Source: Acidimicrobiales bacterium
GTDB lineage: Bacteria > Actinomycetota > Acidimicrobiia > Acidimicrobiales > Aldehydirespiratoraceae
Assembly: GCA_965116485.1 (NCBI GenBank)
Contig: OZ220692.1
Location: forward strand, 1,627,152 to 1,691,151
Direction: 5' to 3'
DNA: 64,000 nt
Shown in pieces: positions 24,909-61,370 of the stretch. Position 1 is the first letter of the stretch. Each line of letters opens with the position of its first letter. Made by a program: the position numbers and the translations under genes. The notes under the pieces are model-generated. The model was given only the letters and a program-made list of their open reading frames with translations. It ran no database searches and was not told the DNA's origin.

Positions 24909-25094
24909 GGCTGCGGCGCCCTCCTCCAGCGGTGCGTTCGGTGATGGATTGCTTGAGTAGGCCACGATACGGCGATCGGGGATCGTCAGCGACGAAGACT
25001 CCGGAGTACTGCCCGGGTGAAGCAAGCTGCTTCGCGAATTTTTGGCGGCGAGTTCGGCGCCCGGTAAAGTCGGCGGGCATCTAGCCTTGCTGGA

Positions 25095-26069
25095 ATGGGT
25101 GGGGACAACACTCGCTGGTCTGATAGGAGCGCAGGTGTGCCGTTAGAAAACGTCGCCCACCGTGATGTTCAGTATGCGAACGCCTACTTGGCGTCTTTGG
25201 CCGCCGGACCGTCGAGATCCACCACGGAGTCAGCGTTGCGGGTCGTCGCCAGAGACTTCTTCGGGTGCGAGCCTGATGAGATGCCTTGGACGGCATTACG
25301 AGCCGAGGATGTCGGGTGGCTGCGGGCGCAGCTGGCCGAACGCCGAGCCCCTGCAACGGCCAACAAGTTGCTCGCCGCGGTCCGCGGTGTGCTTCTGGCC
25401 GCGTGGCGTAGTAACGCAATCGATACCGACACTTACCACCGCACGATCGATGCCGCCAAATCGGTGAAAGGCAGCCGATTGCCTGCTGGGCGAGCGCTCA
25501 CCCCCGACGAGGTTCAACGCTTGTTTGCCGACTGCAATGATGGAACCCACTCGGGGTTGAGAGACGCAGCGGCCTTAGCTTTGATGCTCGGGTGCGGGTT
25601 GCGACGTTCCGAAACGGTCGCGATCGACATGGCCGATCTGGACCTCCCCAACGCTGAGACCGAAGTCCTCGGTAAGGGCAACAAGGAGAGAACCGCTTAC
25701 CCCCCATCAGGAACCCTCCACGCGGTGACCGCTTGGGTAGCGGCTCGGGGCGATGTGGACGGTCCGATGCTGTGCCCCGTCCTGGTCTCGGGTCGGATCA
25801 TCGCTGGTCGCGGAATCTCTACGACAGCGATCGCTCAACGCTTGGAGAAGCGTTGCTTTAGCGCAGGGATCGCCCGATGCACGCCACACGACCTTCGGCG
25901 TACTTTCGTCTCTGGATCGCTTGACGCTGGACTAGATCTGGCGGTGGTCCAACGGCTCGCCGGTCATGCGTCTCCGGCGACCACGGCCGTCTACGATCGT
26001 CGCGGCGAACGAGCCGCGAGACAAGCCGTAGCGAAGCTGATCCTCCCAACGGGAGACCTTCTGCTGTAG
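25095..26069 (+). CDS. Tyrosine-type site-specific recombinase/integrase
   Basis: GLRRSE (Arg), HDLRRTF (His-x-x-Arg), and LAGHASPATTAVY (His, Tyr nucleophile). It heads the accessory region. Confidence 0.85.
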   Translation: MGGDNTRWSDRSAGVPLENVAHRDVQYANAYLASLAAGPSRSTTESALRVVARDFFGCEPDEMPWTALRAEDVGWLRAQLAERRAPATANKLLAAVRGVLLAAWRSNAIDTDTYHRTIDAAKSVKGSRLPAGRALTPDEVQRLFADCNDGTHSGLRDAAALALMLGCGLRRSETVAIDMADLDLPNAETEVLGKGNKERTAYPPSGTLHAVTAWVAARGDVDGPMLCPVLVSGRIIAGRGISTTAIAQRLEKRCFSAGIARCTPHDLRRTFVSGSLDAGLDLAVVQRLAGHASPATTAVYDRRGERAARQAVAKLILPTGDLLL

Positions 26070-26253
26070 CACCCTGAGTGGCCCTTAGCGCTACCAACAG
26101 CGCTACCACCCAGTCCGTCCACGACGTCAGCGTGGTCTGCTCATCTGTTGGGTGCTGCGACCTCGCTGCGCGCAACCACCAACGGGTTTAAGCGTCCAAC
26201 AGGATTTTGGCGGCGCGGTGCGCCAAGCGAAGGTTGAGTGGGGATCCCAATCC

Positions 26254-26311
26254 ACCACTGCTTGCGATAATTACCGTTATCTACCACTGCTTGCGATAAT
26301 TACCGTTATCT
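26254..26311. repeat. 29-bp direct repeat x2, each containing the 16-bp palindrome GATAATTACCGTTATC
   Basis: accactgcttgcgataattaccgttatct occurs at 26254-26282 and 26283-26311, with palindromes at 26266-26281 and 26295-26310. Confidence 0.85.
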
Positions 26312-26638
26312 TATAGTACGGGTTCGAGACCCTTGTCAAGTATTTCTCGCCCGATTTTCGTCACGAACGTCATGCACAGCTCATAATCTCCTGCTTTACG
26401 TGGGCAAACAGTGACAAATCAGTGCACCGATTTTGTTGACGCAGGAGGCCCCAGAGACTGAGGCCGACAAGATTCAGCGCGGTCGATAAGTCACGCTCAC
26501 AGCAACTGACGCTGGCAACTGTGCTTGACCGCGGGCGGTCGCCTAGTCGCTCACATCTTGGTATTCAGGACCCTAGCAGGGCTTTCGCGGATCGGATTGT
26601 CACGGTTGCTGCTACCGCGGCTCGGTTTGTACGTGGTG

Positions 26639-26654
26639 GATAACGGGAATTATC
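26639..26654. promoter_or_regulatory. Third copy of the 16-bp palindrome (inverted, 1 mismatch)
   Basis: GATAACGGGAATTATC is the reverse complement of the site above with one change. It lies 30 bp upstream of the giant gene's ATG. Confidence 0.45.
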
Positions 26655-26683
26655 CGCACGTATCCAGGACGGGGACCAACCCA

Positions 26684-29600
26684 ATGCAACGCCACGCCGA
26701 TTCCACAGCTTTTTGTCTGCGCTCACTAGCTACCAGGCTGGGTCGATCCCGCCGTGTCCTCAGGGGTGTGGCGCTGATGTTGATCTTCGCGTCAGCAGCG
26801 TACGGACTTACGGCCGTGCCCCCAGTGTCGATGCCACAGGCGGCAGCCGACGACCAAACCGAGACATATCAAGAACGGGTTGCGCCGTTCACTCAAACCG
26901 ACCGCGTCAGGGTAGCGCCGTTCACTGAGACTTACCAAGAGCGCGTCCCGCCATACACCCAAACCGTCCGCGTCAGGGTTGCGCCGTTCACCGAGTCCTA
27001 CCAGGTACGTGTCGCACCGTTCACCGAGAGCTATCGGGTGCGTGTCGCGCCGCTCACCGAAACCTATCGCGTCAGGGTTGCGCCGTTCACTCAAACCGAC
27101 CGCGTCAGGGTAGCGCCGTTCACTGAGACTTACCAAGAGCGCGTCCCGCCATACACCCAAACCGTCCGCGTCAGGGTTGCGCCGTTCACCGAGTCCTACC
27201 AGGTACGTGTCGCGCCGTTCACCGAGAGCTATCGCGTGCGTGTCGCGCCGTACACTCGAAGCGTGGCTGCATACAACTACGAAACGGTGTGTCCTCCCTG
27301 TCGTCAGGTTCGGGTAGCGCCGTTCACGCGAACCGTGGCTGTCTACAACTACGAAAACCGCACTCGAAATGTTTACAACTACGCGAACCGCACGCGAGCC
27401 GTCTTCAACTACGAAAACCGCACGCGAAATGTTTACAACTACGCGAACCGCACGCGAGCCGTCTTCAACTATGCGGACCGCACCCGAGATGTCTACAACT
27501 GGGAGAACCGAACGCGAGCTGTCTACAACTATGAGAATCGCTCCCGACCCGTTTGGAACTACGAAACCCGCACCCGATCAGTAGTCAACTACGAAAACCG
27601 CGTGCAAGACTTTTTTCACTATGCGGAACGCACGCGAGATGTCTTCAACTATGCGGAACGCACCCGAGATGTCTACAACTGGGAGACAAGGACTCGCAGT
27701 GTCTCCCACACTCATACCTGCCCCGCGGGCCAGCAGCTCGAGGGCCATGCCACCTGCGTACCAACGACCACCACGACGACGACAACGACGACAACGACTA
27801 CAGCACCACCACCCCCTAGACCTGTGGTTTCGATTACCGCTCACCCATCTGTCACCGAGGGAGCCCGCGCGTTGTTCACGGTCAGTGCTGCGCTTGCACC
27901 ATCAGAGACGCTCACGGTCACTGTGGCGGTGGCCGGAGGTGGTTACGCGTCGACTGGTACGCGTTCTGTGACATTGCAGGGTTCCTCATCATTCCCTCCC
28001 GGTCTTGCTACCGGCTTGCTGTCAGTGGCTACCGTCGATGACACGCTAGACGAGCCCGACGGAACGGTTACCGCAACAATCACAGCCGGCGCCGGCTACA
28101 CCGTTTCCGCCTCAGCGCGCTCGGCTGCCGTGACAGTCAAAGACAACGATTTGTCTGCTAGGGAGAGATGCGAGGCCGACGGAGGAACTTGGACTCCGCC
28201 GCTGGTTGACCCCTGCGTGAAACCTACGGTGTCGATCACTGGCCCCGCAGCGCCCGTCACAGAAGGCGCTGCGGTTCATTTCACTGTCACTGTTTCTCCA
28301 GCGCCTGCGTATTCGCTTGACGTTTCGGTGGCTGTGTCGTCTGTCGGCGGCTACGCGGCGTCTAATACTCGAACGGTGACGGTGCCCACCAGCGGAACCG
28401 CTGCTTTCACTGTCGCTACACTCAACGACACCGTGGATGAACCCGACGGTTCGGTAACTGCGACTATTGGAGCCAGTAGCCGCTACACTGGAGGCGGCGC
28501 CTCAGCAACCGTCGCGGTGCGAGACGACGACGCGACGCCTACTCAGGGGGATTGCCCCAGCGGCTACTACGAACTCGTCGATCCGTTGCCGACGGCCTGG
28601 ATTGATCTGTTCAACAGCGAAGTTAGTTTCGACCAAGCCACAGGGTTGCACCCTGAGCCCGTTGTGTGGGTGCCGCAGCGAAGTATCCCGCGGACACAAG
28701 ACCGGGGCTGTTACATGGCTCGTTTCGAAGTCACCGACGTGGGAGCGGTAAACGAGAACGAACTGAAAGAAGCGGCAACAGCCGCGTTAGTGGTCGGCTC
28801 ACAAGCATACAACGTGATCTGCGATCCCGTTGCAACGGTTACGGCAGAGTTGGGGCTCAGAAGAGCGGAGAAGTCTAAGGCTGTCGCCAGGATCGCTACG
28901 AGGCTGGGCACTACCAGCGCCAAAATCGTGCAGCGGGCTTCGATCGTGTTGAATGTTGTGTGTCTGCCAGCCACCATACAAGACGTGCTCAGCGTGTTGA
29001 GATGGATCGACGGGCTGTTCTCAACACCGCCGAAGCCGCTGTGCCCGGACCCTCCGACGGGGTTGGCTCTAGTCGGCACCGATGGGGCGATACAGGTGTC
29101 GTGGACACCCCCAACCAACGCGCCTGAAACAGAGGCCGACGAACACGGCGAGCACAGATACACTGTCTATTGGGGGGAAGGTGCGAGTTCGCTGGGTGCT
29201 CCGATCACGGGAATCAAGACCATCTGGCGTTCAGGGCCTCGAGCGGCGCACACAATTGCAGCAACAAATGGGCACGAATACTGGGTTCAAGTCTTCTGGG
29301 GCACGAAACTCGGATGCGAAGGGCAAGCACCAGTGGTAGAGGGAACAGTCACGCCAATCGCCGCTCCAAGCGCTCCACGCGGTCTGGTTCTCCTGCCTTC
29401 GGAAGGGCAGATACGGGTTTCATGGCAAGCAGCGCCGCATACCAGCGCGGCGCCCGTCGAGGGGTACCAAGTTTCGTGGAGCGACAGCGGAGGTCGTATC
29501 GACAGCGCTCGCGTGCTGCGAGGTGTCACAACGCACACGATCGGGGGCCTCACCAACGGGAGGACCTATCACGTCAGCGTGTCCGCGCACAATGTCTCGG

Positions 29601-30547
29601 GCCCCTCGGCTGCAGTATCCTACACAACAATCCCAATCACTGCTCCTAGTGCGCCGACCGGTCTGGTCCTTACACCTGCTGGAGGGCAGATACGGGTTTC
29701 GTGGCAGCCGGCGCCGCACAGCAGCGCGGCGCCCGTCGAGAGGTACAAAATTTCGTGGAGCGAAATCATCGGACCCGATGGCCAGGACGTTCACCTGCAT
29801 CAAGATGCCAGAGAGTATACGATCGAGGGCCTTGCCAACGGGAGGGTCTACAGCGTCGAAGTACACGCGTACAATAGGTTAGGCAACTCGACTGCCATTG
29901 GCGGCAGAGCAATCCCCAGGGTCGCTGCTCCTAGTGCGCCGACCGGTTTGGTCCTTACACCTGCTGGAGGGCAGATACGGGTTTCGTGGCAGCCGGCGCC
30001 GCACAGCAGCGCGGCGCCCGTCGAGGGATACGACATAACGTGGAGCGACAGCACAGGCCATATCGACAGCGCTAGCGTGCTGCGAGGTGTCACAACGCAC
30101 ACGATCGAGGGCCTTACCAACGGGAGCGCCTACAGCGTCGAAGTAAACGCGTACAATACCGATGATTTGGACCGTATATCATACTCGACTGTCATTAGCG
30201 GCACGGCAACCCCGGTCGTCGTTCCTAGTGCGCCGACCGGTATGGTCCTTACGCCTGCTGAAGGGCAGATGCGGGTTTCGTGGCAGCCAGCGCCGCACAG
30301 CAGCGAGGCGCCCGTCGAGGGATATTATATCAGCTGGTACACCGGCACCGGCGCAGGCGCACAACCCAGCGCTCTCACACCGCGAGGCCAAACGACATAC
30401 ACGATCACGGGCCTTACCAACGGGAGCGCCTACAGCGTCTTCGTGTACGCTGTCAATGCCGCAGGCAAATCGGCTCACATCTGGGGCAAAGCAACCCCTA
30501 GGGCAGCGACACCGACCGCCGCGACTCACCCCCGTCGCCTACGCTGA
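26684..30547 (+). CDS. Giant secreted repeat protein (novel 11-aa and 10-aa repeats, 2 Calx-beta-like modules, unknown Cys module, 5 FN3-like modules)
   Basis: ATG at 26684. RSRRVLRG plus a hydrophobic stretch resembles a Tat/Sec signal. Then about 13 x (xYxVRVAPFTE), about 12 x (VYNYENRTRx), and a poly-Thr/Pro linker. TVDDTLDEPDG and TLNDTVDEPDG are Calx-beta signatures. Repeated APSAPTGLVLTPAGGQIRVSWQP marks the FN3 starts. Confidence 0.8.
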   Translation: MQRHADSTAFCLRSLATRLGRSRRVLRGVALMLIFASAAYGLTAVPPVSMPQAAADDQTETYQERVAPFTQTDRVRVAPFTETYQERVPPYTQTVRVRVAPFTESYQVRVAPFTESYRVRVAPLTETYRVRVAPFTQTDRVRVAPFTETYQERVPPYTQTVRVRVAPFTESYQVRVAPFTESYRVRVAPYTRSVAAYNYETVCPPCRQVRVAPFTRTVAVYNYENRTRNVYNYANRTRAVFNYENRTRNVYNYANRTRAVFNYADRTRDVYNWENRTRAVYNYENRSRPVWNYETRTRSVVNYENRVQDFFHYAERTRDVFNYAERTRDVYNWETRTRSVSHTHTCPAGQQLEGHATCVPTTTTTTTTTTTTTAPPPPRPVVSITAHPSVTEGARALFTVSAALAPSETLTVTVAVAGGGYASTGTRSVTLQGSSSFPPGLATGLLSVATVDDTLDEPDGTVTATITAGAGYTVSASARSAAVTVKDNDLSARERCEADGGTWTPPLVDPCVKPTVSITGPAAPVTEGAAVHFTVTVSPAPAYSLDVSVAVSSVGGYAASNTRTVTVPTSGTAAFTVATLNDTVDEPDGSVTATIGASSRYTGGGASATVAVRDDDATPTQGDCPSGYYELVDPLPTAWIDLFNSEVSFDQATGLHPEPVVWVPQRSIPRTQDRGCYMARFEVTDVGAVNENELKEAATAALVVGSQAYNVICDPVATVTAELGLRRAEKSKAVARIATRLGTTSAKIVQRASIVLNVVCLPATIQDVLSVLRWIDGLFSTPPKPLCPDPPTGLALVGTDGAIQVSWTPPTNAPETEADEHGEHRYTVYWGEGASSLGAPITGIKTIWRSGPRAAHTIAATNGHEYWVQVFWGTKLGCEGQAPVVEGTVTPIAAPSAPRGLVLLPSEGQIRVSWQAAPHTSAAPVEGYQVSWSDSGGRIDSARVLRGVTTHTIGGLTNGRTYHVSVSAHNVSGPSAAVSYTTIPITAPSAPTGLVLTPAGGQIRVSWQPAPHSSAAPVERYKISWSEIIGPDGQDVHLHQDAREYTIEGLANGRVYSVEVHAYNRLGNSTAIGGRAIPRVAAPSAPTGLVLTPAGGQIRVSWQPAPHSSAAPVEGYDITWSDSTGHIDSASVLRGVTTHTIEGLTNGSAYSVEVNAYNTDDLDRISYSTVISGTATPVVVPSAPTGMVLTPAEGQMRVSWQPAPHSSEAPVEGYYISWYTGTGAGAQPSALTPRGQTTYTITGLTNGSAYSVFVYAVNAAGKSAHIWGKATPRAATPTAATHPRRLR
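26864..27258 (+). repeat. 33-bp (11-codon) coding repeat array, including a 198-bp near-perfect tandem duplication
   Basis: TYQERVAPFTQ / TDRVRVAPFTE / SYQVRVAPFTE and similar. The DNA at 26884-27053 recurs at 27082-27251. Confidence 0.9.
27259..27706 (+). repeat. 30-bp (10-codon) coding repeat array
   Basis: VYNYENRTRN VYNYANRTRA VFNYENRTRN ... VYNWETRTRS. Confidence 0.9.
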
Positions 30548-30620
30548 ACTACACAACCAACGACACCCGTAACAACTGTACCCACCAACTTGTCCCCGTC
30601 ACAGTAAGGATGACAAACCA

Positions 30621-30944
30621 ATGGCATCTACGGAAACGACCGATGTGCCCGCACGGAACGGACCGGTAGACGAAAGACCACGTCTGTTCTCTGTTGATGT
30701 TCTGACCTCGGGCTACCTTTTTGGTTTGCCCTTGCTGGTGTGGGTTTGGATAGCCGTGACTCAGTCCCCTCTGCGGAACGCCATATCGCTGGGGTTGTAC
30801 GTCGTCTGGGTGTTCGGCGATCTGGTGATATATCGACTCAGACACCGTGCTATGCCTCCCCGGCCAACATGGGGCAAACACAACCGCTGGACAGTCCCGC
30901 TTCTCTTCCTTGTCTTGATCGTGGGGGCGATCCAAGGTGTTTAA
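30621..30944 (+). CDS. Small 3-TM membrane protein, paralog 1
   Basis: 107 aa with the ERPRLFSVDVL ... PRPTWGKHNRWTVPLLF motif. AAGGA lies upstream of the ATG. The stop overlaps the next ATG (TAATG). Confidence 0.7.
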   Translation: MASTETTDVPARNGPVDERPRLFSVDVLTSGYLFGLPLLVWVWIAVTQSPLRNAISLGLYVVWVFGDLVIYRLRHRAMPPRPTWGKHNRWTVPLLFLVLIVGAIQGV

Positions 30945-31216
30945 TGGCACAATCAGAAATAACCGAAGTAGCTGACACTGAGACGTATCGGGTGCGGGTT
31001 GCTCCATACACCCGAACCGTGGCCGCCTACAACTACGAGACCCGGTCCCGAGCCGTCTTCAACTATGAAACCCGTTCTCGACCCGTATGGAACTATGAGA
31101 ACCGTACCCGGCCAGTAGTTAATTACGAGCCCCGGTCCCGAGCCGTCTTCAACTACGAAACTCGTTCTCGACCCGTATGGAACTATGAGAACCGTACCCG
31201 GCCAGTAGTCAATTAC
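30944..31216 (+). pseudogene. Second YNYE-repeat protein gene, 5' part, interrupted by ISL3 ends
   Basis: MAQSEITEVADTETYRVRVAPYTRTVAAYNYETRSRAVFNYETRSRPVWNYENRTRPVVNY, followed by an IS inverted repeat. There is no signal peptide. Confidence 0.65.
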
Positions 31217-31284
31217 GGGTTCTTCGCGTTTCAGGGGGGAGTGAGGGTGTTGAGTAGCGCCCGGTTGGGCTTCTATGTCAATGT
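31217..31284. mobile_element. Solo ISL3-type terminal repeat copy
   Basis: gggttcttcgcgtttcaggggggagtgagggtgttgagtag... is a 68-bp duplicate of the left end of the adjacent IS. Confidence 0.6.
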
Positions 31285-32702
31285 GGCTCTTCGCGTATTA
31301 GGTCGGAGTGAGGGTGTTGAGTAGGTTCCAGTTGGGCTTGCCGGCATACAGGAGTGCTCTGATCCGGTAATTGGTGAAGTCAGTGAAATGCGAACCCGAC
31401 GCGTTTGACTCGTTTGATCAGATTGTCAGCGGCTCGGTGGCTGTGTTGGACACCCGGGCGTGGTGCCAGTCAGCAGTTCTGGGTGCTCCAACGAGCCAGG
31501 GTGCGTCCCAACCGGTTGACCTCGACAGGCAGAAACGAGTCTTGGAACTCGACGGCGAGCTGATCGACGGTCACGCGTCCGAGGTCGGGATCGGCGATGT
31601 CATATATCCCGCGCAGGGTCTCTTTGGCGTGCCAGGCGTTGCGGACCTCGCCGTGGGGGTCACCGGATTCGAGCAGGCCGCGTAGACGGCCGTCGCCTGT
31701 TTCGCTGATGCGTTCGTGACCGGTGAGCAGCAGTTTGCGGCTTCGATACAGCGGGTCGTGTTTGCGGCCCCGGTGCCCGAGGGTCTGGTTCTGCACCCGC
31801 CGTCGCACCTCGTCGAGTGTGTTGTCAGCTTGCCGCACGACGTGGAACGGGTCCGCGACCTGGGCTGCGTCATCCAGCGCCGTGTCCAGCGTCGCCCTAT
31901 ACGGTCCAAAGAGGTCCAGGGTCGCCCAACGAATGTGTACCCGCCAGCTCGCCGGTTGGTTGAGCAGCCACCTCGCCGGTGCTGTGGCTGTTCTGTGAGG
32001 CACTATGTCCAACAGTTTGCCGCCGGCGACATCGACGATGCTGGTCGCCCACGCCTTGTGTCTATAACGGCCGGTGCGGCCGAACAGAGTTTCGTCGAGA
32101 CCCACAGCGGTCGTCGCGCCGATCCGGTCGACATCAGCATCGAGCAGCGTTTGACCCCACCACAGCACCGTGTCGTTCACCGCCGACCAGCAACACGCCA
32201 AGTCCGAAGCAACATCGCTCACCGGACGGCCACAGCCGACCTGGCGTGTCGCCCAACGCGCTGCTCGTGTCGTCAACAACACCCGCGGCGGCGCGACCTA
32301 GTGGTTGTGTTCAGTCACCGACCCCGTGCCGCAATCCTCACTCGGGCAACGCCACCGGTGTTTGTGCCACACCAACCTCGCCGGCCGGCCGAAGCTCGGC
32401 AGATCCACCAGCTCCACCAGCCGCTTGCCGTCGGACCACAACTTGCCGCCACAACCCGCACACGACGGACGCGGTGCCCGACATCGGACATGCAACCTCA
32501 ACGGCTCGCCGCCACGGTCGTCGTCGACGCTCAACACGTCGACTTCGCCGAGGCCCACCAACAACTCGCACATGCGTATAGGGTCGTGCTCCACCGGGAT
32601 CCTCCAGTCTTGGATTGGTTTACGACCCCGATTCTGGAGGATCCCGCTCAACCAACCGCGGACACCCCACAACCCCGACTCCGACCTCAAACGCGAAGAG
32701 CC
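31285..32702 (-). mobile_element. ISL3-family insertion sequence with a degraded transposase
   Basis: The ends are ggctcttcgcg... and ...cgcgaagagcc. The transposase N-terminus has a zinc finger (CAGCGG...CPSEDC). There is an in-frame TAG at 32298-32300. The C-terminal part (VSNTATEPLTI*...YRIRALLYAGKPNW) carries a stop and a frameshift. Confidence 0.8.
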
Positions 32703-32723
32703 TACAGCGTAAGGGACAACATC

Positions 32724-33023
32724 CTTACGCTGGCGGCATTGGTCGATGCAATTGCAGTAAGAAGGCGGGCTGGACAATCCGAGCGGTCGGGTTCCAACTT
32801 CTCAATCGCTATCGGGGGGAGCTCTCAAGCGAATGGCTATGCTAGAATTACCGCGAACGAACGCGTTTTCCTCGCGGTGACCTCACGCCCTCCCCAACCC
32901 ATAGTAGGGTGCCTGCCCCCCAGATACACGACCCGCAACTCGACACTCGACCGACAGACATCCACCACCGGAAACCACACAACACACCGGGACATCACAA
33001 TCCATTATTGTGAAAGGAGTTAA
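32724..33023 (+). CDS. Cassette 1 conserved coding segment X1 (no start codon of its own; ...TTGNHTTHRDITIHYCERS)
   Basis: It is colinear with X2 over 100 codons. In the 3' 64 codons I counted 21 synonymous against 12 non-synonymous differences. Confidence 0.5.
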   Translation, partial: LTLAALVDAIAVRRRAGQSERSGSNFSIAIGGSSQANGYARITANERVFLAVTSRPPQPIVGCLPPRYTTRNSTLDRQTSTTGNHTTHRDITIHYCERS

Positions 33024-33027
33024 TTCC

Positions 33028-33306
33028 GTGGAGCAGGAAGGCATATACTCCAGACTGCAAAAATTAGCGAGGCTGAGAGGATGGACTCACTGGCCGGTTC
33101 TTGTTGTTGGTTGTAGCATCCAATTCGTCCTAAGCATATTGAGCTACAAATGGGGCTACATCAGAGAGTCGCAAACAGTTGCTGTCATCCAGTGGACCGT
33201 AATATTAACTTTGGTATCTGTTATCGTTCTAGATCTCATAGGCGAAATCGCGTTCAGAATGTTGAGGCGCAAGCTTCAGCGATCGCAAAAGGTCGGTGGC
33301 GTGTGA
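33028..33306 (+). CDS. Small 2-TM protein A (cassette 1)
   Basis: GTG at 33028 lies 8 nt after AAAGGAG. Sequence features are LQKLARLR, two hydrophobic helices, and IAFRMLRRKLQRSQKV. Confidence 0.65.
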   Translation: MEQEGIYSRLQKLARLRGWTHWPVLVVGCSIQFVLSILSYKWGYIRESQTVAVIQWTVILTLVSVIVLDLIGEIAFRMLRRKLQRSQKVGGV

Positions 33307-33394
33307 ACTTCGTCTACATACAGTTGCCGACTGAAACTAGTTTTCTGGGCAACAGTCTCGACAGTGGATTGTAAATCTCTGGTGCCGAACTGCC

Positions 33395-33694
33395 CTTACG
33401 CTAGGGGCACTGGTTGACGCCCTCAAAGGAAGAAGGCAAAGTAACCAGAGTTCACATGAGTCATCTAACTTCTCCATCGGCGTGGCGGGGGGAGCGCAAG
33501 CGAATGGGTATGCTAGGGTAACGGACACCGAGCGTGTGTTCTTCGCAGTGACCGCGTTTCCCCCGCGTCCCATCGTGGGGTGCCTGCCGACCAGATACAC
33601 GACCCGAACCTCGACACTTGACCGCCAGACATCTACCACCGGAAACCACACAACCCACCGAGACATCACCATCCACTATTGCCAGAAGGACTAA
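33395..33694 (+). CDS. Cassette 2 conserved coding segment X2 (orphan; ...TTGNHTTHRDITIHYCQKD)
   Basis: Same length and frame as X1. An in-frame TAG lies at 33338. There is no ATG, only an unsupported GTG at 33482. Confidence 0.45.
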   Translation, partial: LTLGALVDALKGRRQSNQSSHESSNFSIGVAGGAQANGYARVTDTERVFFAVTAFPPRPIVGCLPTRYTTRTSTLDRQTSTTGNHTTHRDITIHYCQKD

Positions 33695-33701
33695 CTGTAT
33701 C

Positions 33702-33980
33702 ATGCCGGGCCGCGACGCTGACAGATTCGAACTATTGACACGTTTGAGGAAATTGCATTTGGGATGGGTAACAGCTGCTTGCCTTAGCATCAATTTTGGC
33801 TTAGGTATATTGGAACGATTTGAGTGGGGAGTCGCAGAAAAATCGCAAACAGCTTTCAACATCCTACTAGTGCTCTTAATGGTTGTAGGAGTTGTACTTT
33901 TCTTACATTTGAGAAGCGAAATAGTGCTCAGAAGGTCGAAGCACAAATCCGCACAAGGGGCAGAAGAAGCGACTTCATGA
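33702..33980 (+). CDS. Small 2-TM protein B (cassette 2)
   Basis: ATG at 33702 follows AGAAGGA. Sequence features are LTRLRKLHLGW, two helices and a basic tail. Confidence 0.6.
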   Translation: MPGRDADRFELLTRLRKLHLGWVTAACLSINFGLGILERFEWGVAEKSQTAFNILLVLLMVVGVVLFLHLRSEIVLRRSKHKSAQGAEEATS

Positions 33981-34011
33981 ACGAATCTGCGCTGTTGCGT
34001 TCGTGCTAGTT

Positions 34012-34100
34012 GTAATGGACATGGAGATTGGTAGCTCCGTGCTGGGGGTGAGCCGCCTGTGCGAGTGTGGGTTGTCCACAGTCGGTACGAACACAAGACC
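34012..34100 (+). mobile_element. IS481-family left-end remnant
   Basis: tgtaatggacatggag... comes directly after gCTAGt, the known IS481 target motif. It aligns with the copy at 35420. Confidence 0.55.
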
Positions 34101-34103
34101 GAA

Positions 34104-34193
34104 ACACTCGACCGGATGACCTACACCACTGGAAACCACACAACCCACCGAGACATCACCATCCACTACTGCGACAACCTCCTGATACAGTAA
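34104..34193 (+). pseudogene. Cassette 3 segment X3, 5'-truncated (TLDRMTYTTGNHTTHRDITIHYCDNLLIQ)
   Basis: Only the last ~29 codons remain. Most differences from X2 are at third codon positions. Confidence 0.5.
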
Positions 34194-34223
34194 CGATTCT
34201 ATAGCGATAGTTGAACCAGCGCG

Positions 34224-34517
34224 ATGAAACCGCACGATATTAGTCCCACGCTTGAGAAATTGGCGAAACTGCGGGACCCACCACCCGTGTTGTGGTGGCT
34301 GTACATAACCTATTTCTTGGTGGCGACAGTCCTAGGTACATTCTCGTTCTCCGGTTGGGAGCCTCCAGTGATAGTGCCACCACCGATCGACTTCATACTC
34401 CTATTACTATTCACTACACTGGTCGTGTCCAGTGTGACGCTAACTTTGGTAGCCGATATCGCGTTCAGGATCTTGAAGCGTAAGCTTCGGCAATCGCAAG
34501 AGGTTGATGGGCTGTGA
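34224..34517 (+). CDS. Small 2-TM protein C (cassette 3)
   Basis: LEKLAKLR, two helices, and IAFRILKRKLRQSQEV. The C-terminal motif is shared with protein A. Confidence 0.6.
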   Translation: MKPHDISPTLEKLAKLRDPPPVLWWLYITYFLVATVLGTFSFSGWEPPVIVPPPIDFILLLLFTTLVVSSVTLTLVADIAFRILKRKLRQSQEVDGL

Positions 34518-34727
34518 CCACTGTGTACATGCACCTGTGCACTGAAACTGATCTTCTGGGCAACAGTCTCGACAGTGAATCGCAAATATTCTTGTCCCGA
34601 ACTGTTGACTATTGTTGTGAGTTCTTCGCGTGTCGCACGGTCAGTTTTAACCAAGCCAGGGCTACACCCTGAGCCTGTTCTCTCGGTCTTCGCATTCTGC
34701 CGCGGGCTCGGTGAGCGCAAGGGCGTG

Positions 34728-35045
34728 CCTGCTGGAGGGCAGATACGGGTTTCGTGGCAGCCAGCGTCGCACAGCAGCGCGGTACCCGTCGAGGGATATT
34801 ATATCAGCTGGTATACTGGCACCGGCACAGGCGCACAACCCAGCGCTCTCACACCGCGAGGCCAAACGACATACACGATCACGGGCCTTACCAACGGGAG
34901 CGCCTACAGCGTCTTCGTGTACGCTGTCAATGCCGCAGGCAAATCGGCTCACATCTGGGGCAAAGCAACCCCTAGGGCAGCGACACCGACCGCCGCGACT
35001 TACCCCGTCGCCTACGCTGAACTACACAACCAACGACACCCGTAA
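34728..35045 (+). pseudogene. Orphan copy of the last FN3 module of the giant gene
   Basis: Aligns with 30254-30547. One C fewer in a C-run near 35010 changes the tail to ...ATYPVAYAELHNQRHP. A short patch at 34651-34682 also matches 28633-28665. Confidence 0.7.
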
Positions 35046-35093
35046 CAACTGTACCCACCAACTTGTCCCCGTCACAGTAAGGATGACAAACCA

Positions 35094-35417
35094 ATGGCAT
35101 CTACGGAAACGACCGATGTGCCCGCACAGAACAGACCGGCAGACGAAAGACCACGTCTGCTCTCTGTTGATGTTCTGACCTCGGGCTACCTCTTTGGCTT
35201 GCCCTTGCTGGTGTGGGTTTGGATAACTGCGACTCAATCCCCTCTGCGGAACGCCATAGCGCTGGGAGGTTACGTGGTCTGGGTTCTTGGTGATCTAGCG
35301 ATATATCGAATCAGGCACCGTGCGATGCCTCCCCGCCCGACATGGGGCAAACACAACCGCTGGACAGTCCCGCTGCTCTTCCTAGTCTTTATCATCCGAA
35401 CGGTTCAAGGCATCTAG
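35094..35417 (+). CDS. Small 3-TM membrane protein, paralog 2
   Basis: 107 aa, close copy of 30621-30944. Its last codons and stop are supplied by the IS481 target CTAG. Confidence 0.65.
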   Translation: MASTETTDVPAQNRPADERPRLLSVDVLTSGYLFGLPLLVWVWITATQSPLRNAIALGGYVVWVLGDLAIYRIRHRAMPPRPTWGKHNRWTVPLLFLVFIIRTVQGI

Positions 35418-35419
35418 TT

Positions 35420-35592
35420 GTAGTGGACATAGAGGTTGGTAGCTCCGCGATGGGGTGAGCCTCCTGTGCAAGTGTGGGGTTGTACGACAACCGACACGAA
35501 CAACAGGAGGCTCGTATGTCGCACGCTAACGCAAAGTTCACGCCCGCTGGGCGTTTGTTGATGGTTCGCCGGGTCGAGGCGGGGATGCCCCA
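35420..35592 (+). mobile_element. IS481-family 5' fragment (left IR plus the first ~25 transposase codons)
   Basis: tgtagtggacat... follows tCTAGt. AGGAGG precedes the ATG at 35516, which opens MSHANAKFTPAGRLLMVRRVEAGMP. Confidence 0.65.
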
Positions 35593-35875
35593 GAGTCTGG
35601 GTTTGCACCCGGCGGCGCACTTCGTCGAGTGTGTGGTTGGCGAGCCTGACGAAGTGGAACGGGTCCGCGACCTGGTGTGCGTGCGGCAGTGCTGTGTCCA
35701 AAGTGGCCCGATACGGCCCGGACGGGTCCCCCGCCGCCCAACGAATCCTGTCACGCCGACTCTGTGGTTGGTTCAGCAGCCACTGCGCGAGCCCAGCAGC
35801 GGTTCTGTCTGGCACTATGTCCAACAGTTTGCCGTCAGCGACGTCGACGATGCTGGTCGCCCACGCCCGTTTCTT
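35585..35875 (-). mobile_element. ISL3 transposase internal fragment
   Basis: KKRAWATSIVDVADGKLLDIVPDRTAAG...ADPFHFVRLANHTLDEVRRRVQTQTLGH is colinear with the transposase at 31470-32282. Confidence 0.7.
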
Positions 35876-35880
35876 GAACC

Positions 35881-36294
35881 GTCCGCTGCTACAACACCGC
35901 CGGTCAATCGACTGCAATACGCGGCACCGCAACCCCCAGACAACCAGCCACGACAACTACGACGACCACGACGGTTCCACCTCCGGTCGATCAGGCACCT
36001 TCACGGCCTGTGAACCTGGCAGTGACCTGTGCACCCGCTGCTCCCGGGTCGGTGCGTTTGGTCGTTACGTGGAACGCTCCAGATGCTTCGCCAATACCTA
36101 TTGAGTCATACCAGTACAACATAGGGGGCGTCCAGGGGTCGGTCCCGGCGGTCAAACCGATTCCCCAGATACAGGGGAACTTCTCAGTGTCCAAGACCGT
36201 CCCGCGCTCGAACGACCTCGTGCAGGTCTCCTCTCAGGGAGCGTCTCAACGCTCCGACTGGGTACAGACCCGCGCCGACTGCAGCGGTGTCTAG
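35881..36294 (+). pseudogene. 5'-truncated fragment of a paralogous FN3 surface-protein gene
   Basis: ...YNTAGQSTAIRGTATPRQPATTTTTTTTVPPPVDQAPSRPVNLAVTCAPAAPGSVRLVVTWNAP... has no start and is cut by the IS fragment. Confidence 0.6.
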
Positions 36295-36417
36295 CAAAGT
36301 CAAGCCGATGCCTGTAGGTGGCCCTCCGCTGACACAAGTGCCCACTAAACACAAACATCACGCCGGCGCACCGACCGGTCTGCGCAAAGCTAGGAAGACA
36401 GTTAGGATGACGATCTA

Positions 36418-36750
36418 ATGGAGCAATCAGAAACATCCGACGTAGCTGACGGCGACGTAGACCAAAGACCGAGATTGTTCTCTTTCGAAACTCTAGCCAC
36501 CGGTGTACCGGAAGGTCTGCCCCTGTTGGTATTTGCTGCTATAGCAGCAAACTCGAGCGCTGGGGCGAACGCCATCGCTCTCGGCGCGGTCGCAGCGGTT
36601 GTGCTTGGCGATGTAGTGGCTTATCGGGTTAGGAATCATCACCTCCCCCCCGCTCCGCCCCGTTGGCCGTCGTCATGGGGCAGGCACAATCGTTGGACGG
36701 TCCCGCTGTTCTTTATCGTCTTGATCGTAGGAGCGGTCCGAGGCATCTAG
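36418..36750 (+). CDS. Small 3-TM membrane protein, divergent paralog 3
   Basis: 110 aa that keeps the QRPRLFSFE ... WGRHNRWTVPLFF motifs. The TAGGATGA-type leader resembles that of paralog 1. Confidence 0.6.
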   Translation: MEQSETSDVADGDVDQRPRLFSFETLATGVPEGLPLLVFAAIAANSSAGANAIALGAVAAVVLGDVVAYRVRNHHLPPAPPRWPSSWGRHNRWTVPLFFIVLIVGAVRGI

Positions 36751-36765
36751 AGGCCGGACAGGCCC

Positions 36766-37716
36766 ATGACCACGAAGATCCCATCGGATACACGTACCGA
36801 CGCGTCGGAACTTGTTGTCGGTGACACACCGCAGGCGGATTGTCTGCGAGCGTGTGAGACAGGCACAAACCTAAAACAGAACCGAACGCTGCACCGTCGC
36901 AGCGGCATCGGTTCAGCGCTAGCGTGCGGCGGCGTGGGCCAAGCGATCTTTGTGCCTGACGGTGAATGGCTGATACCTCAACCGAACGCCTGCGGGCCTT
37001 GGTTCCCGGGTGTGCAGCACGGAGGATCGATCGCGGGACTGTTCGCCAGAGCGATCGAACGGGTCGCATCCGATACTGCGATGTTCACGACTCGGATCAG
37101 CATCGACATGAGCCGTCGGGTCCCGATGGCGCCGACGAAGGTCGAGACCGAAGTCGTGAGGAACGGTCGTCGAGTGCAGGCCATCGAAGCGCGCTACGTC
37201 GTTTCCGACGAGGTGGTAGCCCGCGCCACGGCGACCCGAATCCGCGTTGACGAAGGCCTCTCGTCAAACAAGATCGGGGTCGGCTTCCGCCCCGAAGACC
37301 TACCCCCGATGCAACCCGAGGAAGTACCGGACATGGAGGACCTGTTCGTCGGCTTCGACTTTGTCCGGAACTTCGTCATGCGCCGAGAACAAACGCCGTC
37401 AGGTCAAGCGATGACATGGGCCCGTCTCGACCGCCAGTTTGTGGCGGGCGAACCCAACACCCCGTTGATCCAGCTTGCGGCTGTTGCCGACATGATCCCG
37501 AGCGCCAATTCGTTGCTGGACTACGGCGAGTACTTGTCGGTCAACCCGGATCTCAACATTGCCGTTTCGAGACTGCCGAACAGTGACTGGGTTGGTTCGT
37601 TGGCGGTTGTCCGGAACGCCCCGGGCGGTGTCGGCCAGACAGACGCGCAACTGTTCGACGAGCAGGGAGTGATCGGCAGGTCGATCAAATCGTTATTGAT
37701 TGATCACCGAAAATAA
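36766..37716 (+). CDS. Thioesterase-like (acyl-CoA thioesterase double hot-dog) family protein
   Basis: GPWFPGVQHGGSIAGLFARA ... VVRNGRRVQAIEARY ... The real start may be the GTG at 36934. Confidence 0.65.
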   Translation: MTTKIPSDTRTDASELVVGDTPQADCLRACETGTNLKQNRTLHRRSGIGSALACGGVGQAIFVPDGEWLIPQPNACGPWFPGVQHGGSIAGLFARAIERVASDTAMFTTRISIDMSRRVPMAPTKVETEVVRNGRRVQAIEARYVVSDEVVARATATRIRVDEGLSSNKIGVGFRPEDLPPMQPEEVPDMEDLFVGFDFVRNFVMRREQTPSGQAMTWARLDRQFVAGEPNTPLIQLAAVADMIPSANSLLDYGEYLSVNPDLNIAVSRLPNSDWVGSLAVVRNAPGGVGQTDAQLFDEQGVIGRSIKSLLIDHRK

Positions 37717-37718
37717 CC

Positions 37719-39240
37719 ATGTCTCGCGGTGACCCCCGCCCCAACGTCGTGCTGATCAACTGCGACGACCTCGGCTACGGCGACCTCGGATGCTACGGCT
37801 CGAAAGTGCACGACACGCCGGCGATCGACGCATTGGCTGCCGAGGGGATGAGGCTCACCGACTTCTACATGGGGTCGGCCGTGTGCACGCCGTCGCGGGG
37901 AGCGATGTTGACCGGCTGCTACCCGCCGCGTATCGGCTTCGATGACTTCGACGGCATGCATGTGCTGTTCCCGGGAATGGCCGGAGGACTCAACCCCAGC
38001 GAGAAGACCATCGCCCGGCTCCTCAAAGACGCGGGTTACACCACGCAGATCGTCGGCAAGTGGCATTGCGGAGACCAGCCTGACTTCTTGCCGACTCGTC
38101 ACGGTTTCGACGGCTGGTACGGGCTTCCATACAGCAACGACATGGGGATCCAAGCGTCGGCGTTCACCGAAGAGGAGATCACGAGAATCAGAGACGAACT
38201 CGGAATCGAACTGCCCTTCGATTCGCATCCTCCGCTCCCGCTCATGCTAGACGAAGAGGTGATCGAAGCGCAGCCGGACCAGGCCGCGCTCACCGAGCGT
38301 TACCTGCAGGAATCGATCAGGTTCATCAGAAGCAACCGTGACAAGCCGTTCTTGCTGTATTTCGCGCACATGTACGTACACCTGCCGCTGTATGTGCAAC
38401 CGCGGTTCGCGGCAGAGTCACGCAATGGTCCCTACGGGGCAGCGGTTCGTTGCATCGATTGGGCGCTTGCGGTACTGATGGCTGAGCTGACGGCTCTGGG
38501 TTTGAGCGACGACACGATCGTCATCTTCACCAGCGACAACGGCGCGTTGTGCCGACCCGGGGAAGGCAGCAACGCGCCGTTGCGGGACGTCAAGGGCACG
38601 ACCTGGGAAGGCGGGATACGGGTTCCCTGCATCGTGCGTTGGCCGGGCGAGGTGCCGGCAGGTACAACATCGGACGCGCTCACGACCGCTATGGACCGCC
38701 CTCTCAAGCCCTCAAGCTCTTCTTCAACGTCAAGGTACAACATCGGACGCGCTCACGACCGCTATGGACCTGTACCCGACGATCGCAGGCTGGTGCGGCG
38801 CGGATGTACCGACCGACAGAACGATCGACGGTTGCGATATCGATGCGGTGCTTCGGGGCAGGGCCGCAGAATCGCCCAGGGAGACGTTCCTGTACTACAG
38901 CGGCTCGACTCTGGAAGCCGTCCGAATGGGCAAATGGAAGCTTCATCTGGTCAAGGGCAGCAGATGGCGCGGAGGCGACAGCGAAGAGATGCCCCAACTC
39001 TTTGATCTGGCCTCCGACGTCGGCGAGACCAGCAATGTGCTGGCCGACCATCCCGATGTGGTCGCACAGATCATGGTCCATGTCGATGCCGCAAGGGCAG
39101 ACCTGGGGGACACGGCCGCTGGAGTCGAAGGGTCTGGGCGCCGCCCGCAGGGACGAGTCGACAATCCTGTGACGCTGACCACCTTCGACCCCGACCATCC
39201 CTACTACATGGCCGAATACGATCTCGCTGACAGGGGCTGA
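37719..39240 (+). pseudogene. Cys-type sulfatase disrupted by a 73-bp insertion
   Basis: NCDDLGYGDLGCYG and CTPSRGAML (formylglycine motif). The frame shifts by +1 at the insertion; removing 73 bp restores a 482-aa ORF. Confidence 0.8.
38661..38770. repeat. 37-bp direct repeat flanking a 36-bp filler (the sulfatase insertion)
   Basis: ggtacaacatcggacgcgctcacgaccgctatggacc occurs at 38661-38697 and 38734-38770. The filler is gccctctcaagccctcaagctcttcttcaacgtcaa. Confidence 0.9.
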
Positions 39241-61335: not shown

Positions 61336-61370
61336 CCACGCTGCTTGGGCAGTGTGGCGTGGGATATAGC

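What the first reader, a model, noticed from the sequence alone, without database searches (positions are those of the whole stretch)
32703..34620. Tandem array of bicistronic cassettes: conserved Cys-terminated coding segment plus divergent small 2-TM protein (orphan toxin/immunity-like architecture)
A ~671-bp unit recurs at least 3.3 times. Each unit has a trailer (ctgaaact..ttctgggcaacagtctcgacagtg), a ~100-codon segment X and a 92-97-aa 2-TM protein (A, B, C). Each 2-TM gene's Shine-Dalgarno lies in the last codons of X. X1 and X2 have identical length. In their 3' 64 codons I count 21 synonymous against 12 non-synonymous differences. In the last 24 codons before the variable tail, all 8 differences are third-position. 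So X (...RYTTRxSTLDRQTSTTGNHTTHRDITIHYC plus 3-6 variable residues) is under purifying selection as protein. Yet X2 has an in-frame stop upstream and no credible start, and X3 is 5'-truncated by an IS481 end. The partner 2-TM proteins share only an N-terminal LxKLxxLR helix and a basic IAFRxLxRKL tail and are otherwise highly divergent. A conserved effector-like C-terminal segment with a tightly coupled, fast-diverging small membrane protein, reiterated as start-less copies, is the layout of orphan toxin/immunity arrays. No known toxin domain is recognisable, so this may be a new family.
Basis: partly seen in the sequence, partly recalled or inferred. Interest (0 to 1): 0.8.

Follow-up and report, generated by a model that had tools for sequence, protein, structure and literature searches.

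The report
Orphan surface-protein tip/membrane-partner gene cassettes
Three leftover copies of the tail end of a giant cell-surface protein, each followed by its own small membrane-protein gene, sit in a transposon-damaged island; the layout matches the spare toxin/antidote cassettes bacteria keep for warfare, but the protein family is undescribed and its toxicity is untested.

Summary
X is not a free-standing gene. It is the last ~106 residues of a ~160-residue domain found only at the extreme C-terminus of large exported repeat/FN3 proteins of Acidimicrobiia. About nine such proteins turned up among 1.84 billion representatives, with no Pfam, NCBIfam, PDB or Foldseek match. In other genomes an intact X-ending gene is followed by a small membrane-protein gene. 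Further 5'-truncated X copies or X stubs follow, each with its own different membrane-protein gene. One X type keeps the same partner type in two genomes. The domain has conserved ends and a hypervariable, often membrane-grade hydrophobic centre. In this window all X copies are dead ends: X1 is cut by an ISL3 element, X2 has no start, X3 is cut by an IS end, and a fourth stub follows gene C. Genes A, B and C are intact. My best reading (about 0.55) is a decayed orphan array of a new, Sec-exported, membrane-acting polymorphic toxin family with in-membrane immunity proteins. The main doubt: X-less FN3 tails in the same island also carry their own small membrane proteins. That fits a non-toxic module-specific partner equally well.

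The parts
25095..26069 (+). Tyrosine recombinase gene at the left edge of the low-GC island (context)
   Evidence: Pfam Phage_integrase, E 3.6e-25. It is not orthologous to the integrases next to X loci in L003 and L009.
26525..30547 (+). Intact 1340-aa scaffold gene: signal peptide, 11- and 10-residue repeats, poly-Thr, Calx-like domains and FN3 domains. It has no X domain.
   Evidence: ORF. Pfam fn3, E 1.5e-46. N-terminal ~550 aa are 41% identical to the X-bearing L002 protein.
30621..30944 (+). M1, a 107-aa 3-TM protein downstream of the scaffold gene (M-type partner)
   Evidence: ORF, hydropathy. Not homologous to A/B/C (hhalign probability 0.2).
30944..31217 (+). Chimeric ORF fragment: the start of an M-type gene fused to scaffold repeats, cut by the IS
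   Evidence: repeat families D11 and D1.
31218..32702 (-). ISL3-family element with a broken transposase and a duplicated left end at 31218 and 31285. It truncates X1.
   Evidence: Inverted repeats I1 and I2. Pfam DDE_Tnp_ISL3 and Zn_ribbon_ISL3. 72.5% nucleotide identity to an ISL3 copy in L010 that ends exactly at 32702.
32703..33023 (+). X1: the last 106 codons of the X domain plus stop. No start codon of its own.
   Evidence: Profile match E 1e-43, profile positions 51-157. Translation.
33028..33306 (+). Gene A: 92-aa 2-TM protein. GTG start 8 nt after AAAGGAG, which lies in the last X1 codons.
   Evidence: (P0016).
33341..33694 (+). X2: 117 codons open after the in-frame TAG at 33338-33340.
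   Evidence: Profile match E 8e-44, profile positions 56-158. Sequence.
33702..33980 (+). Gene B: 92-aa 2-TM protein
34006..34097 (.). Solo IS-end fragment, the same end as at 35414-35478. It truncates X3.
Evidence: Repeat families D13 and D16. The extension to ~34097 is by eye.
34098..34193 (+). X3: the last ~31 codons of X (ETLDRMTYTTGNHTTHRDITIHYCDNLLIQ*)
   Evidence: Profile match E 1.8e-15, profile positions 123-156.
34224..34517 (+). Gene C: 97-aa 2-TM protein, 42-47% identical to the partner genes of the L002/L005 genome
   Evidence: (P0014).
34551..34612 (+). X4 stub: a decayed start of a fourth X copy (SSGQQSRQ*...), cut off at about 34618
   Evidence: Repeat family D9. Reading of the sequence.
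34640..35417 (+). Orphan copy of the FN3 tail plus M2. It is part of the 4474-bp direct repeat with 30253-30829.
   Evidence: Repeat families D2 and D3. ORFs. M profile E 1e-65.
36010..36750 (+). Divergent FN3-like tail (36010-36294) plus M3 (36418-36750)
   Evidence: ORFs. M profile E 2e-56.

Best explanation
The array is a decayed set of orphan 3' cassettes from a previously undescribed polymorphic-toxin-like system of Acidimicrobiia.

Shown:
- X is the C-terminal part of a ~160-residue domain.
- That domain ends large signal-peptide-bearing repeat/FN3 proteins.
- It has a conserved N-terminal beta-hairpin (RxC...RTCxExW...WWKxLPLxxW).
- It has a conserved C-terminal strand (T.HRDITIHYC plus 3-9 residues).
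- It has two invariant late Cys residues.
- Its centre is hypervariable.
- Every X type is followed by its own small multi-pass membrane protein.
- Displaced, start-less X copies with their partner genes pile up downstream.

Inferred mechanism:
- The scaffold is exported by Sec and displayed as a fibre with X at its end.
- The central helix of X ranges from amphipathic to membrane-grade hydrophobic and is Gly/Ala-rich. It inserts into a neighbour's cytoplasmic membrane and damages it.
- The cognate small membrane protein neutralises X inside the producer's membrane.
- The conserved Cys pair is a disulfide staple of the beta frame.

In this window the delivery gene for X is gone, through IS-mediated rearrangement. 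X1 to X4 are silent remnants. Their codon-level conservation dates from when they were parts of working genes. What probably still works are the three intact partner genes A, B and C, kept as a repertoire of orphan immunity genes.
For: 1. X sits at the extreme C-terminus in all nine homologs found. A profile search of 1.84 billion representatives gave 7 true hits, each ending 1-7 residues from the protein's end. Intact genes are at L002 7910-10306, L009 5971-8202 and L010 5680-8112.
2. These proteins start with a hydrophobic N-terminus followed by an AxA site. Their scaffold is shared with the window's 1340-aa protein.
3. The constraint is at protein level. dN/dS is 0.12, and X1 against L002 shows 10 synonymous and 0 non-synonymous changes in the last 24 codons.
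4. A small membrane-protein gene lies directly downstream of X in L001, L002, L004, L005, L006/7, L009, L010 and L011. In L003, and after P0009's own X copy in L011, an IS sits in that position instead.
5. Orphans occur in other genomes:
   - L002 has an X stub (GNHTTH*DITVHYC) followed by the start of a second partner gene.
   - L005 has four partner units plus an X stub (RDIVVHYS).
   - L009 and L011 each have at least three start-less cassettes with different central regions, all ending ..HYC..EYC or ..KHC, each with a different small TM gene.
6. Cognate pairing is kept across genomes. The P0008-type X is 75% identical between L010 and L005, and its partner is 68% identical, while other X types in the same L005 genome carry unrelated partners.
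7. The central segment reaches a Kyte-Doolittle 19-residue mean of 1.6-2.15 in several variants and 1.2-1.35 in the window copies.
8. The AF2 model gives pLDDT 70-89 for the conserved N- and C-terminal beta elements and below 50 for the variable centre, which contains a long helix.
9. Documented precedents exist:
   - Strings of membrane-protein tsaI immunity genes, with tspA 3' fragments among them, lie downstream of the membrane-depolarising toxin TspA (PMC9484751).
Against: - No toxin fold or motif is recognisable. Toxicity is pure inference.
- In the window-type X the central helix is only amphipathic, not membrane-grade.
- The most conserved part of X lies after the variable part, right before the partner gene. 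Known polymorphic toxins do not have such a conserved C-terminal end.
- In the same island, X-less FN3 tails are also followed by their own small 3-TM protein (M1-M3) and also exist as orphans. An FN3 tail is not an obvious toxin, so the small membrane proteins may be module-specific partners rather than immunity proteins.
- The family is tiny. All loci are IS-ridden, so some arrangements could be rearrangement debris.
Confidence: 0.55

Rival explanations
1. This is a non-toxic variable fibre tip with a module-specific membrane partner. The C-terminal module of the scaffold (X or an FN3 tail) docks to, or is assembled or anchored by, the small membrane protein encoded next to it. The cassettes are silent spares used to vary the tip by recombination, for adhesion specificity, phage evasion or kin recognition, as with IdsD/IdsE or pilin silent cassettes.
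For: Both X modules and X-less FN3-tail modules carry their own small membrane protein and both exist as orphans in the window. X has no toxin signature. The signal peptide is predicted to be cleaved and no sortase-type or other C-terminal anchor is present, so some anchoring partner would be useful.
Against: The partners are hypervariable and belong to several unrelated sequence families: 2-TM 81-97 aa, 3-TM M, and 4-TM 166-181 aa. An assembly or anchoring factor facing a conserved ...HYC end would be expected to be conserved. Strings of partner genes without any X (four units in L005) are typical of immunity repertoires, not of anchors. The exposed loops of the 2-TM proteins are only about 10-15 residues.
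Confidence: 0.27
2. The array is pure wreckage. Tandem duplication and IS-mediated rearrangement left non-functional fragments. A, B and C are as dead as X1-X4, and the codon bias is only a memory of former function.
For: X1, X3 and X4 are cut at IS-end or rearrangement junctions and X2 has no start. There is a chimeric ORF at 30944 and IS fragments at 34006 and 35414-35867. No promoter-like site exceeds chance.
Against: A, B and C keep full-length open frames with two hydrophobic segments each, despite dS of about 1 between the neighbouring X copies. X1 and X2 have no internal stop or frameshift over 106 codons. The same X-plus-partner unit is conserved in at least six other genomes or contigs.
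Confidence: 0.13
3. The conserved 3' end of X is a nucleic-acid element, such as a recombination site or a structured RNA that controls the downstream gene, rather than coding sequence.
For: A 74-nt core is conserved three times and abuts the start of the next gene. Very short stubs of just this region precede partner genes in L002 and L005.
Against: All differences within the core are synonymous third-position changes: 8 of 8 between X1 and X2, and 10 of 10 against L002. More distant homologs keep the peptide while the DNA diverges. There is no Rfam match.
Confidence: 0.03

Closest known systems
CdiA-CT/CdiI orphan modules of contact-dependent inhibition loci (PMC3150448)
   Same: A large exported filament protein with a polymorphic C-terminal region. 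A small cognate gene lies immediately downstream. Arrays of 5'-truncated, start-less CT copies each keep a piece of the conserved upstream region and their own partner gene, and some are broken by IS elements. CdiI of E. coli EC93 is, from my own knowledge, a small two-helix inner-membrane protein that counters an ionophore toxin.
   Different: There is no TPS domain, FHA repeats, VENN motif or CdiB partner. The host is Gram-positive-type and export appears to be by Sec signal peptide. The X domain also has a conserved extreme C-terminus after the variable part. There is no sequence or fold relation.
TspA/TsaI and EsxX of the Staphylococcus aureus T7SS (PMC9484751, PMC12258717)
   Same: A membrane-depolarising polymorphic toxin whose immunity proteins are membrane proteins encoded as strings of non-identical paralogues downstream, with 3' toxin fragments lying among them. 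EsxX uses a glycine-zipper helix. The central helices of several X variants are likewise Gly/Ala-rich.
   Different: There is no LXG domain and no DUF443. No T7SS component turned up in the genes examined around the window locus or in the called genes of the related loci; the loci were not searched specifically for one. The partners here are much smaller (81-97 aa, 2 TM). The scaffold is a 700-1800-aa FN3/repeat fibre.
WapA/WapI and Rhs-type wall-associated toxins of Gram-positive bacteria (from my own knowledge)
   Same: A Sec-exported, wall-associated large repeat protein with a C-terminal toxin and a downstream immunity gene. Orphan CT/immunity modules are known for Rhs.
   Different: There are no RHS/YD repeats and no PxxxxDPxGL motif (Pfam finds none). 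Known WapA and Rhs toxins are mostly nucleases with soluble immunity proteins.
IdsD/IdsE self-recognition pair of Proteus mirabilis (from my own knowledge)
   Same: A delivered protein and a membrane partner whose variable regions determine strain-specific pairing, without killing.
   Different: That system is delivered by T6SS in a Gram-negative host. There is no homology, and no orphan arrays of this form are known to me.

Membership tests
Polymorphic toxin system with orphan CT/immunity modules (generic kind) | A large exported scaffold protein carries the module at its C-terminus | tested here: met
   All homologs carry X within 1-7 residues of the C-terminus. The intact genes have a hydrophobic N-terminus followed by an AxA site. 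In the window itself the X copies are detached from any scaffold.
Polymorphic toxin system with orphan CT/immunity modules (generic kind) | The C-terminal region is polymorphic downstream of a conserved demarcation | tested here: met
   The first ~50 residues are conserved up to WWKxLPLxxW. A variable centre of about 60 to 150 residues follows. The window orphans start right at this boundary (RQW).
Polymorphic toxin system with orphan CT/immunity modules (generic kind) | A small gene lies immediately downstream and co-varies with the CT type | tested here: met
   A partner gene is present in 8 of 9 loci. The P0008-type X and its partner are co-inherited in two genomes at 75% and 68% identity.
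Polymorphic toxin system with orphan CT/immunity modules (generic kind) | Start-less 5'-truncated CT copies, each with its own partner gene, lie downstream of a main gene | tested here: met
   Seen in the window (X1-X4 with A-C), L002, L005, L009 and L011.
Polymorphic toxin system with orphan CT/immunity modules (generic kind) | The CT is toxic and is specifically neutralised by the cognate downstream protein | not testable with these tools
   This needs expression and competition experiments.
Polymorphic toxin system with orphan CT/immunity modules (generic kind) | The CT belongs to a recognisable toxin fold or family | tested here: not met
   No Pfam, NCBIfam or PDB-sequence match. Foldseek against PDB gave nothing at E below 0.001 for two models with pLDDT 58-59.
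CdiA/CdiB two-partner-secretion CDI | TPS domain, FHA repeats, VENN motif and a CdiB transporter | tested here: not met
   Pfam on the full-length homologs P0005 and P0008 and NCBIfam on the L002 protein gave 0 families. No VENN motif appears in alignment A3.
Rhs/WapA | RHS/YD repeats and a PxxxxDPxGL demarcation | tested here: not met
   No RHS_repeat hits. The repeats present are RVRVAPFT-type and NYENRTR-type.
T7SS LXG toxins with TsaI-type immunity | An N-terminal LXG/WXG100 domain and a DUF443 immunity protein | tested here: not met
   No such Pfam hits on the scaffolds or the partners.
C-terminal sorting signals (LPXTG, PEP-CTERM, MYXO-CTERM and similar) | A short motif followed by a hydrophobic helix and a basic tail at the very C-terminus | tested here: not met
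   X ends ...HYC plus 3-9 polar residues, with no terminal hydrophobic helix.

The most novel reading that the evidence does not exclude
The X family is the founding example of an Acidimicrobiia-restricted contact-dependent competition or recognition system. Sec-exported FN3 fibres would carry a new-fold, disulfide-stapled tip whose hypervariable helix enters a neighbour's membrane. Hypervariable 2-TM proteins would recognise or neutralise it inside the membrane. The cassettes would be stockpiled as orphans and reshuffled by recombination.
Probability: 0.45. Interest if true: 0.7.

Novelty: new member of a known kind. Interest (0 to 1): 0.55.

Why it matters
Acidimicrobiia are abundant in seawater, soils, activated sludge and sponges, yet almost nothing is known about how they compete. 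If X is a toxin, it would be a new effector fold with a new delivery scaffold and in-membrane immunity, in a lineage where I found no report of a polymorphic toxin system (one full-text search returned nothing). It would also give a compact, testable set of cognate pairs: X1-A and X2-B here, plus intact genes in other MAGs. Even if it is not a toxin, the rule that each C-terminal module of the fibre brings its own small membrane protein points to an unknown way of partnering surface fibres with the membrane. The window copy itself is a degraded instance and mainly serves as the pointer to the family.

Tried and rejected
Library searches that found nothing:
- Pfam, NCBIfam and PDB-sequence searches of X, A, B, C, M, the variant C-terminal domains and the partner proteins gave nothing meaningful.
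- Two AlphaFold2 models (P0004 at 280 aa, and the P0002 C-terminal domain at 157 aa) had pLDDT 58-59. Foldseek against PDB gave no hit at E below 0.001. The top non-significant hits were GFP-like and hot-dog folds, and I draw nothing from them.
- Rfam found nothing on the region.
- The promoter/terminator scan was at chance level.
- X is absent from phage records, plasmid records and viral contigs, so I dropped a prophage tail-fibre/holin reading.
- The metagenome-contig scan only re-found the L004 contig.
- The word-indexed protein searches found very little: 1, 1 and 4 hits. The family only became visible through the exhaustive profile search and the genome-contig scan.

Ideas tested and dropped:
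- I tested whether M and the 2-TM family are homologous. They are not (hhalign probability 0.2).
- I tested whether the neighbouring integrase is a conserved part of the system. It is not orthologous between loci.
- X1 cannot be rejoined to the ORF upstream of the ISL3 element. There is no target-site duplication, and the flanks are not contiguous in any intact homolog.
- I considered an intein/Hint-like reading of ...HNxx...HYC, and a CaaX-like reading of C plus 3 residues. I dropped the first because the span between the two late Cys residues is only about 34 residues. I dropped the second because the residues after the Cys are polar and their number varies from 3 to 9.
Full report
**1. The observation**

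A 218-nt stretch recurs at 671-bp spacing with 79% identity, and a 74-nt core occurs three times at 85% identity (alignment).

X1 (32703-33023) and X2 (33374-33694) have the same length.
- The last 64 codons have 21 synonymous and 12 non-synonymous codon differences.
- The STLD...HYC stretch has 8 differences, all at third positions.
- Nei-Gojobori dN/dS is 0.12 for the 3' 64 codons and 0.44 for the 5' 42 codons, with dS about 1.

Genes A (33028-33306), B (33702-33980) and C (34224-34517) each encode a 92-97-aa protein with two hydrophobic segments. They are only 25-31% identical to each other. GC content falls to 0.45-0.51 in these genes, against about 0.63 for the surrounding genome.

- X1 is itself truncated. 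It begins exactly at the right inverted repeat of an ISL3-family element (31218/31285-32702).
- The 'trailer' is the in-frame beginning of the next X copy. X2's frame opens at 33341, right after a TAG. A fourth decayed stub follows gene C at 34551-~34612.
- X3 is only about 31 codons, because an IS-end fragment occupies 34006-~34097.
- The Shine-Dalgarno sequence lies inside the last X codons for A and B but not for C.

**2. What X is**

No library recognises X or the small proteins (Pfam; NCBIfam; PDB sequences; Rfam).

The word-indexed protein search found a single relative. Its 1-kb contig already showed the frame running upstream into an FN3-like domain, with a 2-TM gene downstream.

A scan of one genome per species found two loci. 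An exhaustive profile search of 1.84 billion representatives found seven true relatives. In every case X lies at the very end of a large protein.

Intact examples are L002 7910-10306 (798 aa), L009 5971-8202 (743 aa) and L010 5680-8112 (810 aa). P0003 (1843 aa) and P0007 (1437 aa) are longer.

These proteins share one architecture:
- a hydrophobic N-terminus followed by an AxA site;
- 11- and 10-residue repeats (RVRVAPFT..., NYENRTR...);
- a poly-Thr linker;
- Calx-like and FN3 domains;
- a ~160-residue terminal domain.

The window copies keep the last ~106 residues of that terminal domain (alignment A3). The organisms named are an Acidimicrobiales MAG and Candidatus Poriferisocius.

The window's intact 1340-aa gene (26525-30547) shares the N-terminal scaffold with the L002 protein at 41% identity, but ends in FN3 domains without X.

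**3. Protein-level constraint**

The last 24 codons before the invariant Cys show only synonymous changes. There are 8 between X1 and X2, and 10 between either of them and the intact L002 gene. More distant homologs keep T.HR[DN].T[ILV].YC while the DNA diverges. This rules out a DNA or RNA element as the reason for the conservation.

Invariant residues in A3 are a Gly, two Cys (GC... and ...YC), two Tyr, an Arg and a Thr.

The AF2 model of the domain is confident only for the conserved N-terminal hairpin and the C-terminal strands (pLDDT 70-89). It is poor for the centre, which contains a long helix. Neither model matches any solved structure.

I infer a conserved beta frame, probably stapled by a disulfide between the two late Cys, carrying a variable insert.

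**4. The partner gene and the orphans elsewhere**

A small membrane-protein gene directly follows X in L001, L002, L004, L005, L006/7, L009, L010 and L011. In L003, and after one of the L011 copies (P0009), an IS occupies that position.

The partners are hypervariable and fall into several unrelated types:
- 81-98-aa 2-TM proteins;
- a 97-aa type in L010 and L005;
- 166-181-aa 4-TM proteins in the sponge-associated clade.

Orphans are common:
- L002 has a 15-codon X stub containing a stop, followed by the start of a second partner gene.
- L005, 15.6 kb further along the same chromosome, has an X-ending gene followed by four partner units and a 10-codon X stub.
- L009 has an intact gene plus partner. 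At least three start-less cassettes follow, with different central regions, all ending ...HYC, each with a different small membrane gene.
- L011 shows the same pattern with four variants.

One X type keeps its partner type across genomes. The P0008-type X is 75% identical between L010 and an IS30-split orphan in L005, and the partner next to it is 68% identical. Other X types in that L005 genome have unrelated partners.

The search for the 2-TM family returned only proteins that sit next to X.

**5. The variable centre**

After the conserved WWKxLPLxxW comes a helix whose hydrophobicity varies. The Kyte-Doolittle 19-residue mean is 1.2-1.35 in the window copies and 1.6-2.15 in several L009, L011 and P0009 variants. 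In those variants it is long, Gly/Ala-rich and of membrane grade.

The 5' part of X, which encodes this region, evolves faster between X1 and X2 (dN/dS 0.44, 45% amino-acid identity) than the 3' part (0.12, 81%).

**6. State of the window locus**

The island (about 25.1-36.75 kb, lower GC) starts with a tyrosine recombinase gene and the intact scaffold gene plus M1. The rest is a mosaic:
- a chimeric ORF;
- an ISL3 element;
- X1-A, X2-B, an IS-end fragment, X3-C and the X4 stub;
- an orphan FN3 tail plus M2;
- more IS debris;
- a divergent FN3-like tail plus M3.

No X copy has a usable start, and no intact X-bearing gene lies in the window. A, B and C are intact.

dS of about 1 between X1 and X2 means they are old alleles or old duplicates, not a recent in-place duplication. 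The absence of stops or frameshifts within them suggests recent silencing or some maintenance.

**7. Explanation and rivals**

The anatomy matches the polymorphic toxin/immunity pattern with displaced orphan modules:
- Strings of membrane-protein tsaI genes, with tspA 3' fragments among them, follow the membrane-depolarising toxin TspA (PMC9484751).
- EsxX is a glycine-zipper membrane toxin (PMC12258717).

I therefore favour the following (0.55). X is a Sec-exported, fibre-borne, membrane-acting toxin domain. The small membrane proteins are in-membrane immunity proteins. The window array is a decayed orphan repertoire in which only A, B and C may still act.

The steps shown are the domain's position, its polymorphism, the partner linkage, the orphans and the cognate co-inheritance. 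The steps inferred are export, display, membrane attack and protection.

The strongest counter-evidence is inside the window. X-less FN3-tail modules are also each followed by their own small 3-TM protein (M1-M3) and also occur as orphans. M is unrelated to A/B/C. That fits a rival (0.27) in which the small membrane proteins are module-specific partners of a variable, non-toxic fibre tip. Pure wreckage (0.13) and a nucleic-acid element (0.03) are less likely, for the reasons given under each rival.

**8. Comparison and novelty**

The system works like CDI/Rhs/WapA and TspA/TsaI systems but belongs to none of them. It has no TPS, FHA or VENN elements, no RHS repeats, no LXG or DUF443 domains, no colicin domain and no sorting-signal tail.

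Unusual traits are the conserved extreme C-terminus after the variable part, the FN3/repeat scaffold with a Sec signal, and the exclusive use of very small membrane partners.

I rate it a new member of a known kind. The family is undescribed and very rare in the databases: nine X-bearing proteins, all from Acidimicrobiia where named. A search of the paper library for polymorphic toxins in Acidimicrobiia found nothing.

Noticed in passing
window 30253-30944, 34640-35417, 36010-36750: A second kind of cassette occurs three times: a terminal FN3 (or FN3-like) domain with a short tail, plus a 107-110-aa 3-TM protein (M1-M3). One copy is attached to the intact scaffold gene and two are orphans. M is unrelated to A/B/C and is absent from the ten related loci fetched.
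   Followed up: partly
window 30253-30829 and 34727-35302: A 4474-bp-spaced direct repeat (93-96% identity) brackets the X array. The main-gene copy differs from the orphan copy by a 1-nt indel near 30530, which changes the protein tail from ...ATYPVAYAELHNQRHP* to ...ATHPRRLR*.
   Followed up: partly
window 26250-26311: A 29-bp unit (ATCTACCACTGCTTGCGATAATTACCGTT) is repeated 2.1 times in tandem, between the tyrosine recombinase gene and the scaffold gene. It is unique in the window. It could be a recombinase or regulator site.
   Followed up: partly
window 30944-31217: A chimeric ORF. Its first 11 codons match the start of an M-type gene (86% nucleotide identity to 36416-36450). It then continues into scaffold-type TETYRVRVAPYTR/NYETRSR repeats and is cut by the ISL3 element, whose left end is present twice (31218 and 31285).
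   Followed up: partly
window 26858-27680: The scaffold protein has long arrays of 33-nt (RVRVAPFTETYQx) and 30-nt (NYENRTRxVx) coding repeats. They are shared with all X-bearing homologs and have no Pfam match. They may form a wall-binding or stalk region.
   Followed up: no
window 25000-36800: The whole locus is a lower-GC island (0.50-0.60 against about 0.63). It lies between an acyl-CoA dehydrogenase gene and an acyl-CoA thioesterase gene, has a tyrosine recombinase at its left edge and has no tRNA gene nearby.
   Followed up: partly
L003 3256-4374 and 14503-19413; L009 4482-5477; L011 52-516: X loci in other genomes also lie next to Phage_integrase-family genes. In L003 the locus sits beside a 1636-aa relaxase/primase-like ORF, which suggests carriage on integrative elements. 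The integrases are not orthologous to the window's.
   Followed up: partly
window 58578-62612 (- strand): A class A penicillin-binding protein (Transgly, Transpeptidase and PASTA domains) has an unusually long N-terminal extension of about 580 residues before the glycosyltransferase domain.
   Followed up: no
window 37719-39172: The C-terminal third of the sulfatase ORF reads as low-complexity, out-of-family sequence, and a second ORF (38549-39172) overlaps it. This may be a frameshift or a pseudogene.
   Followed up: no
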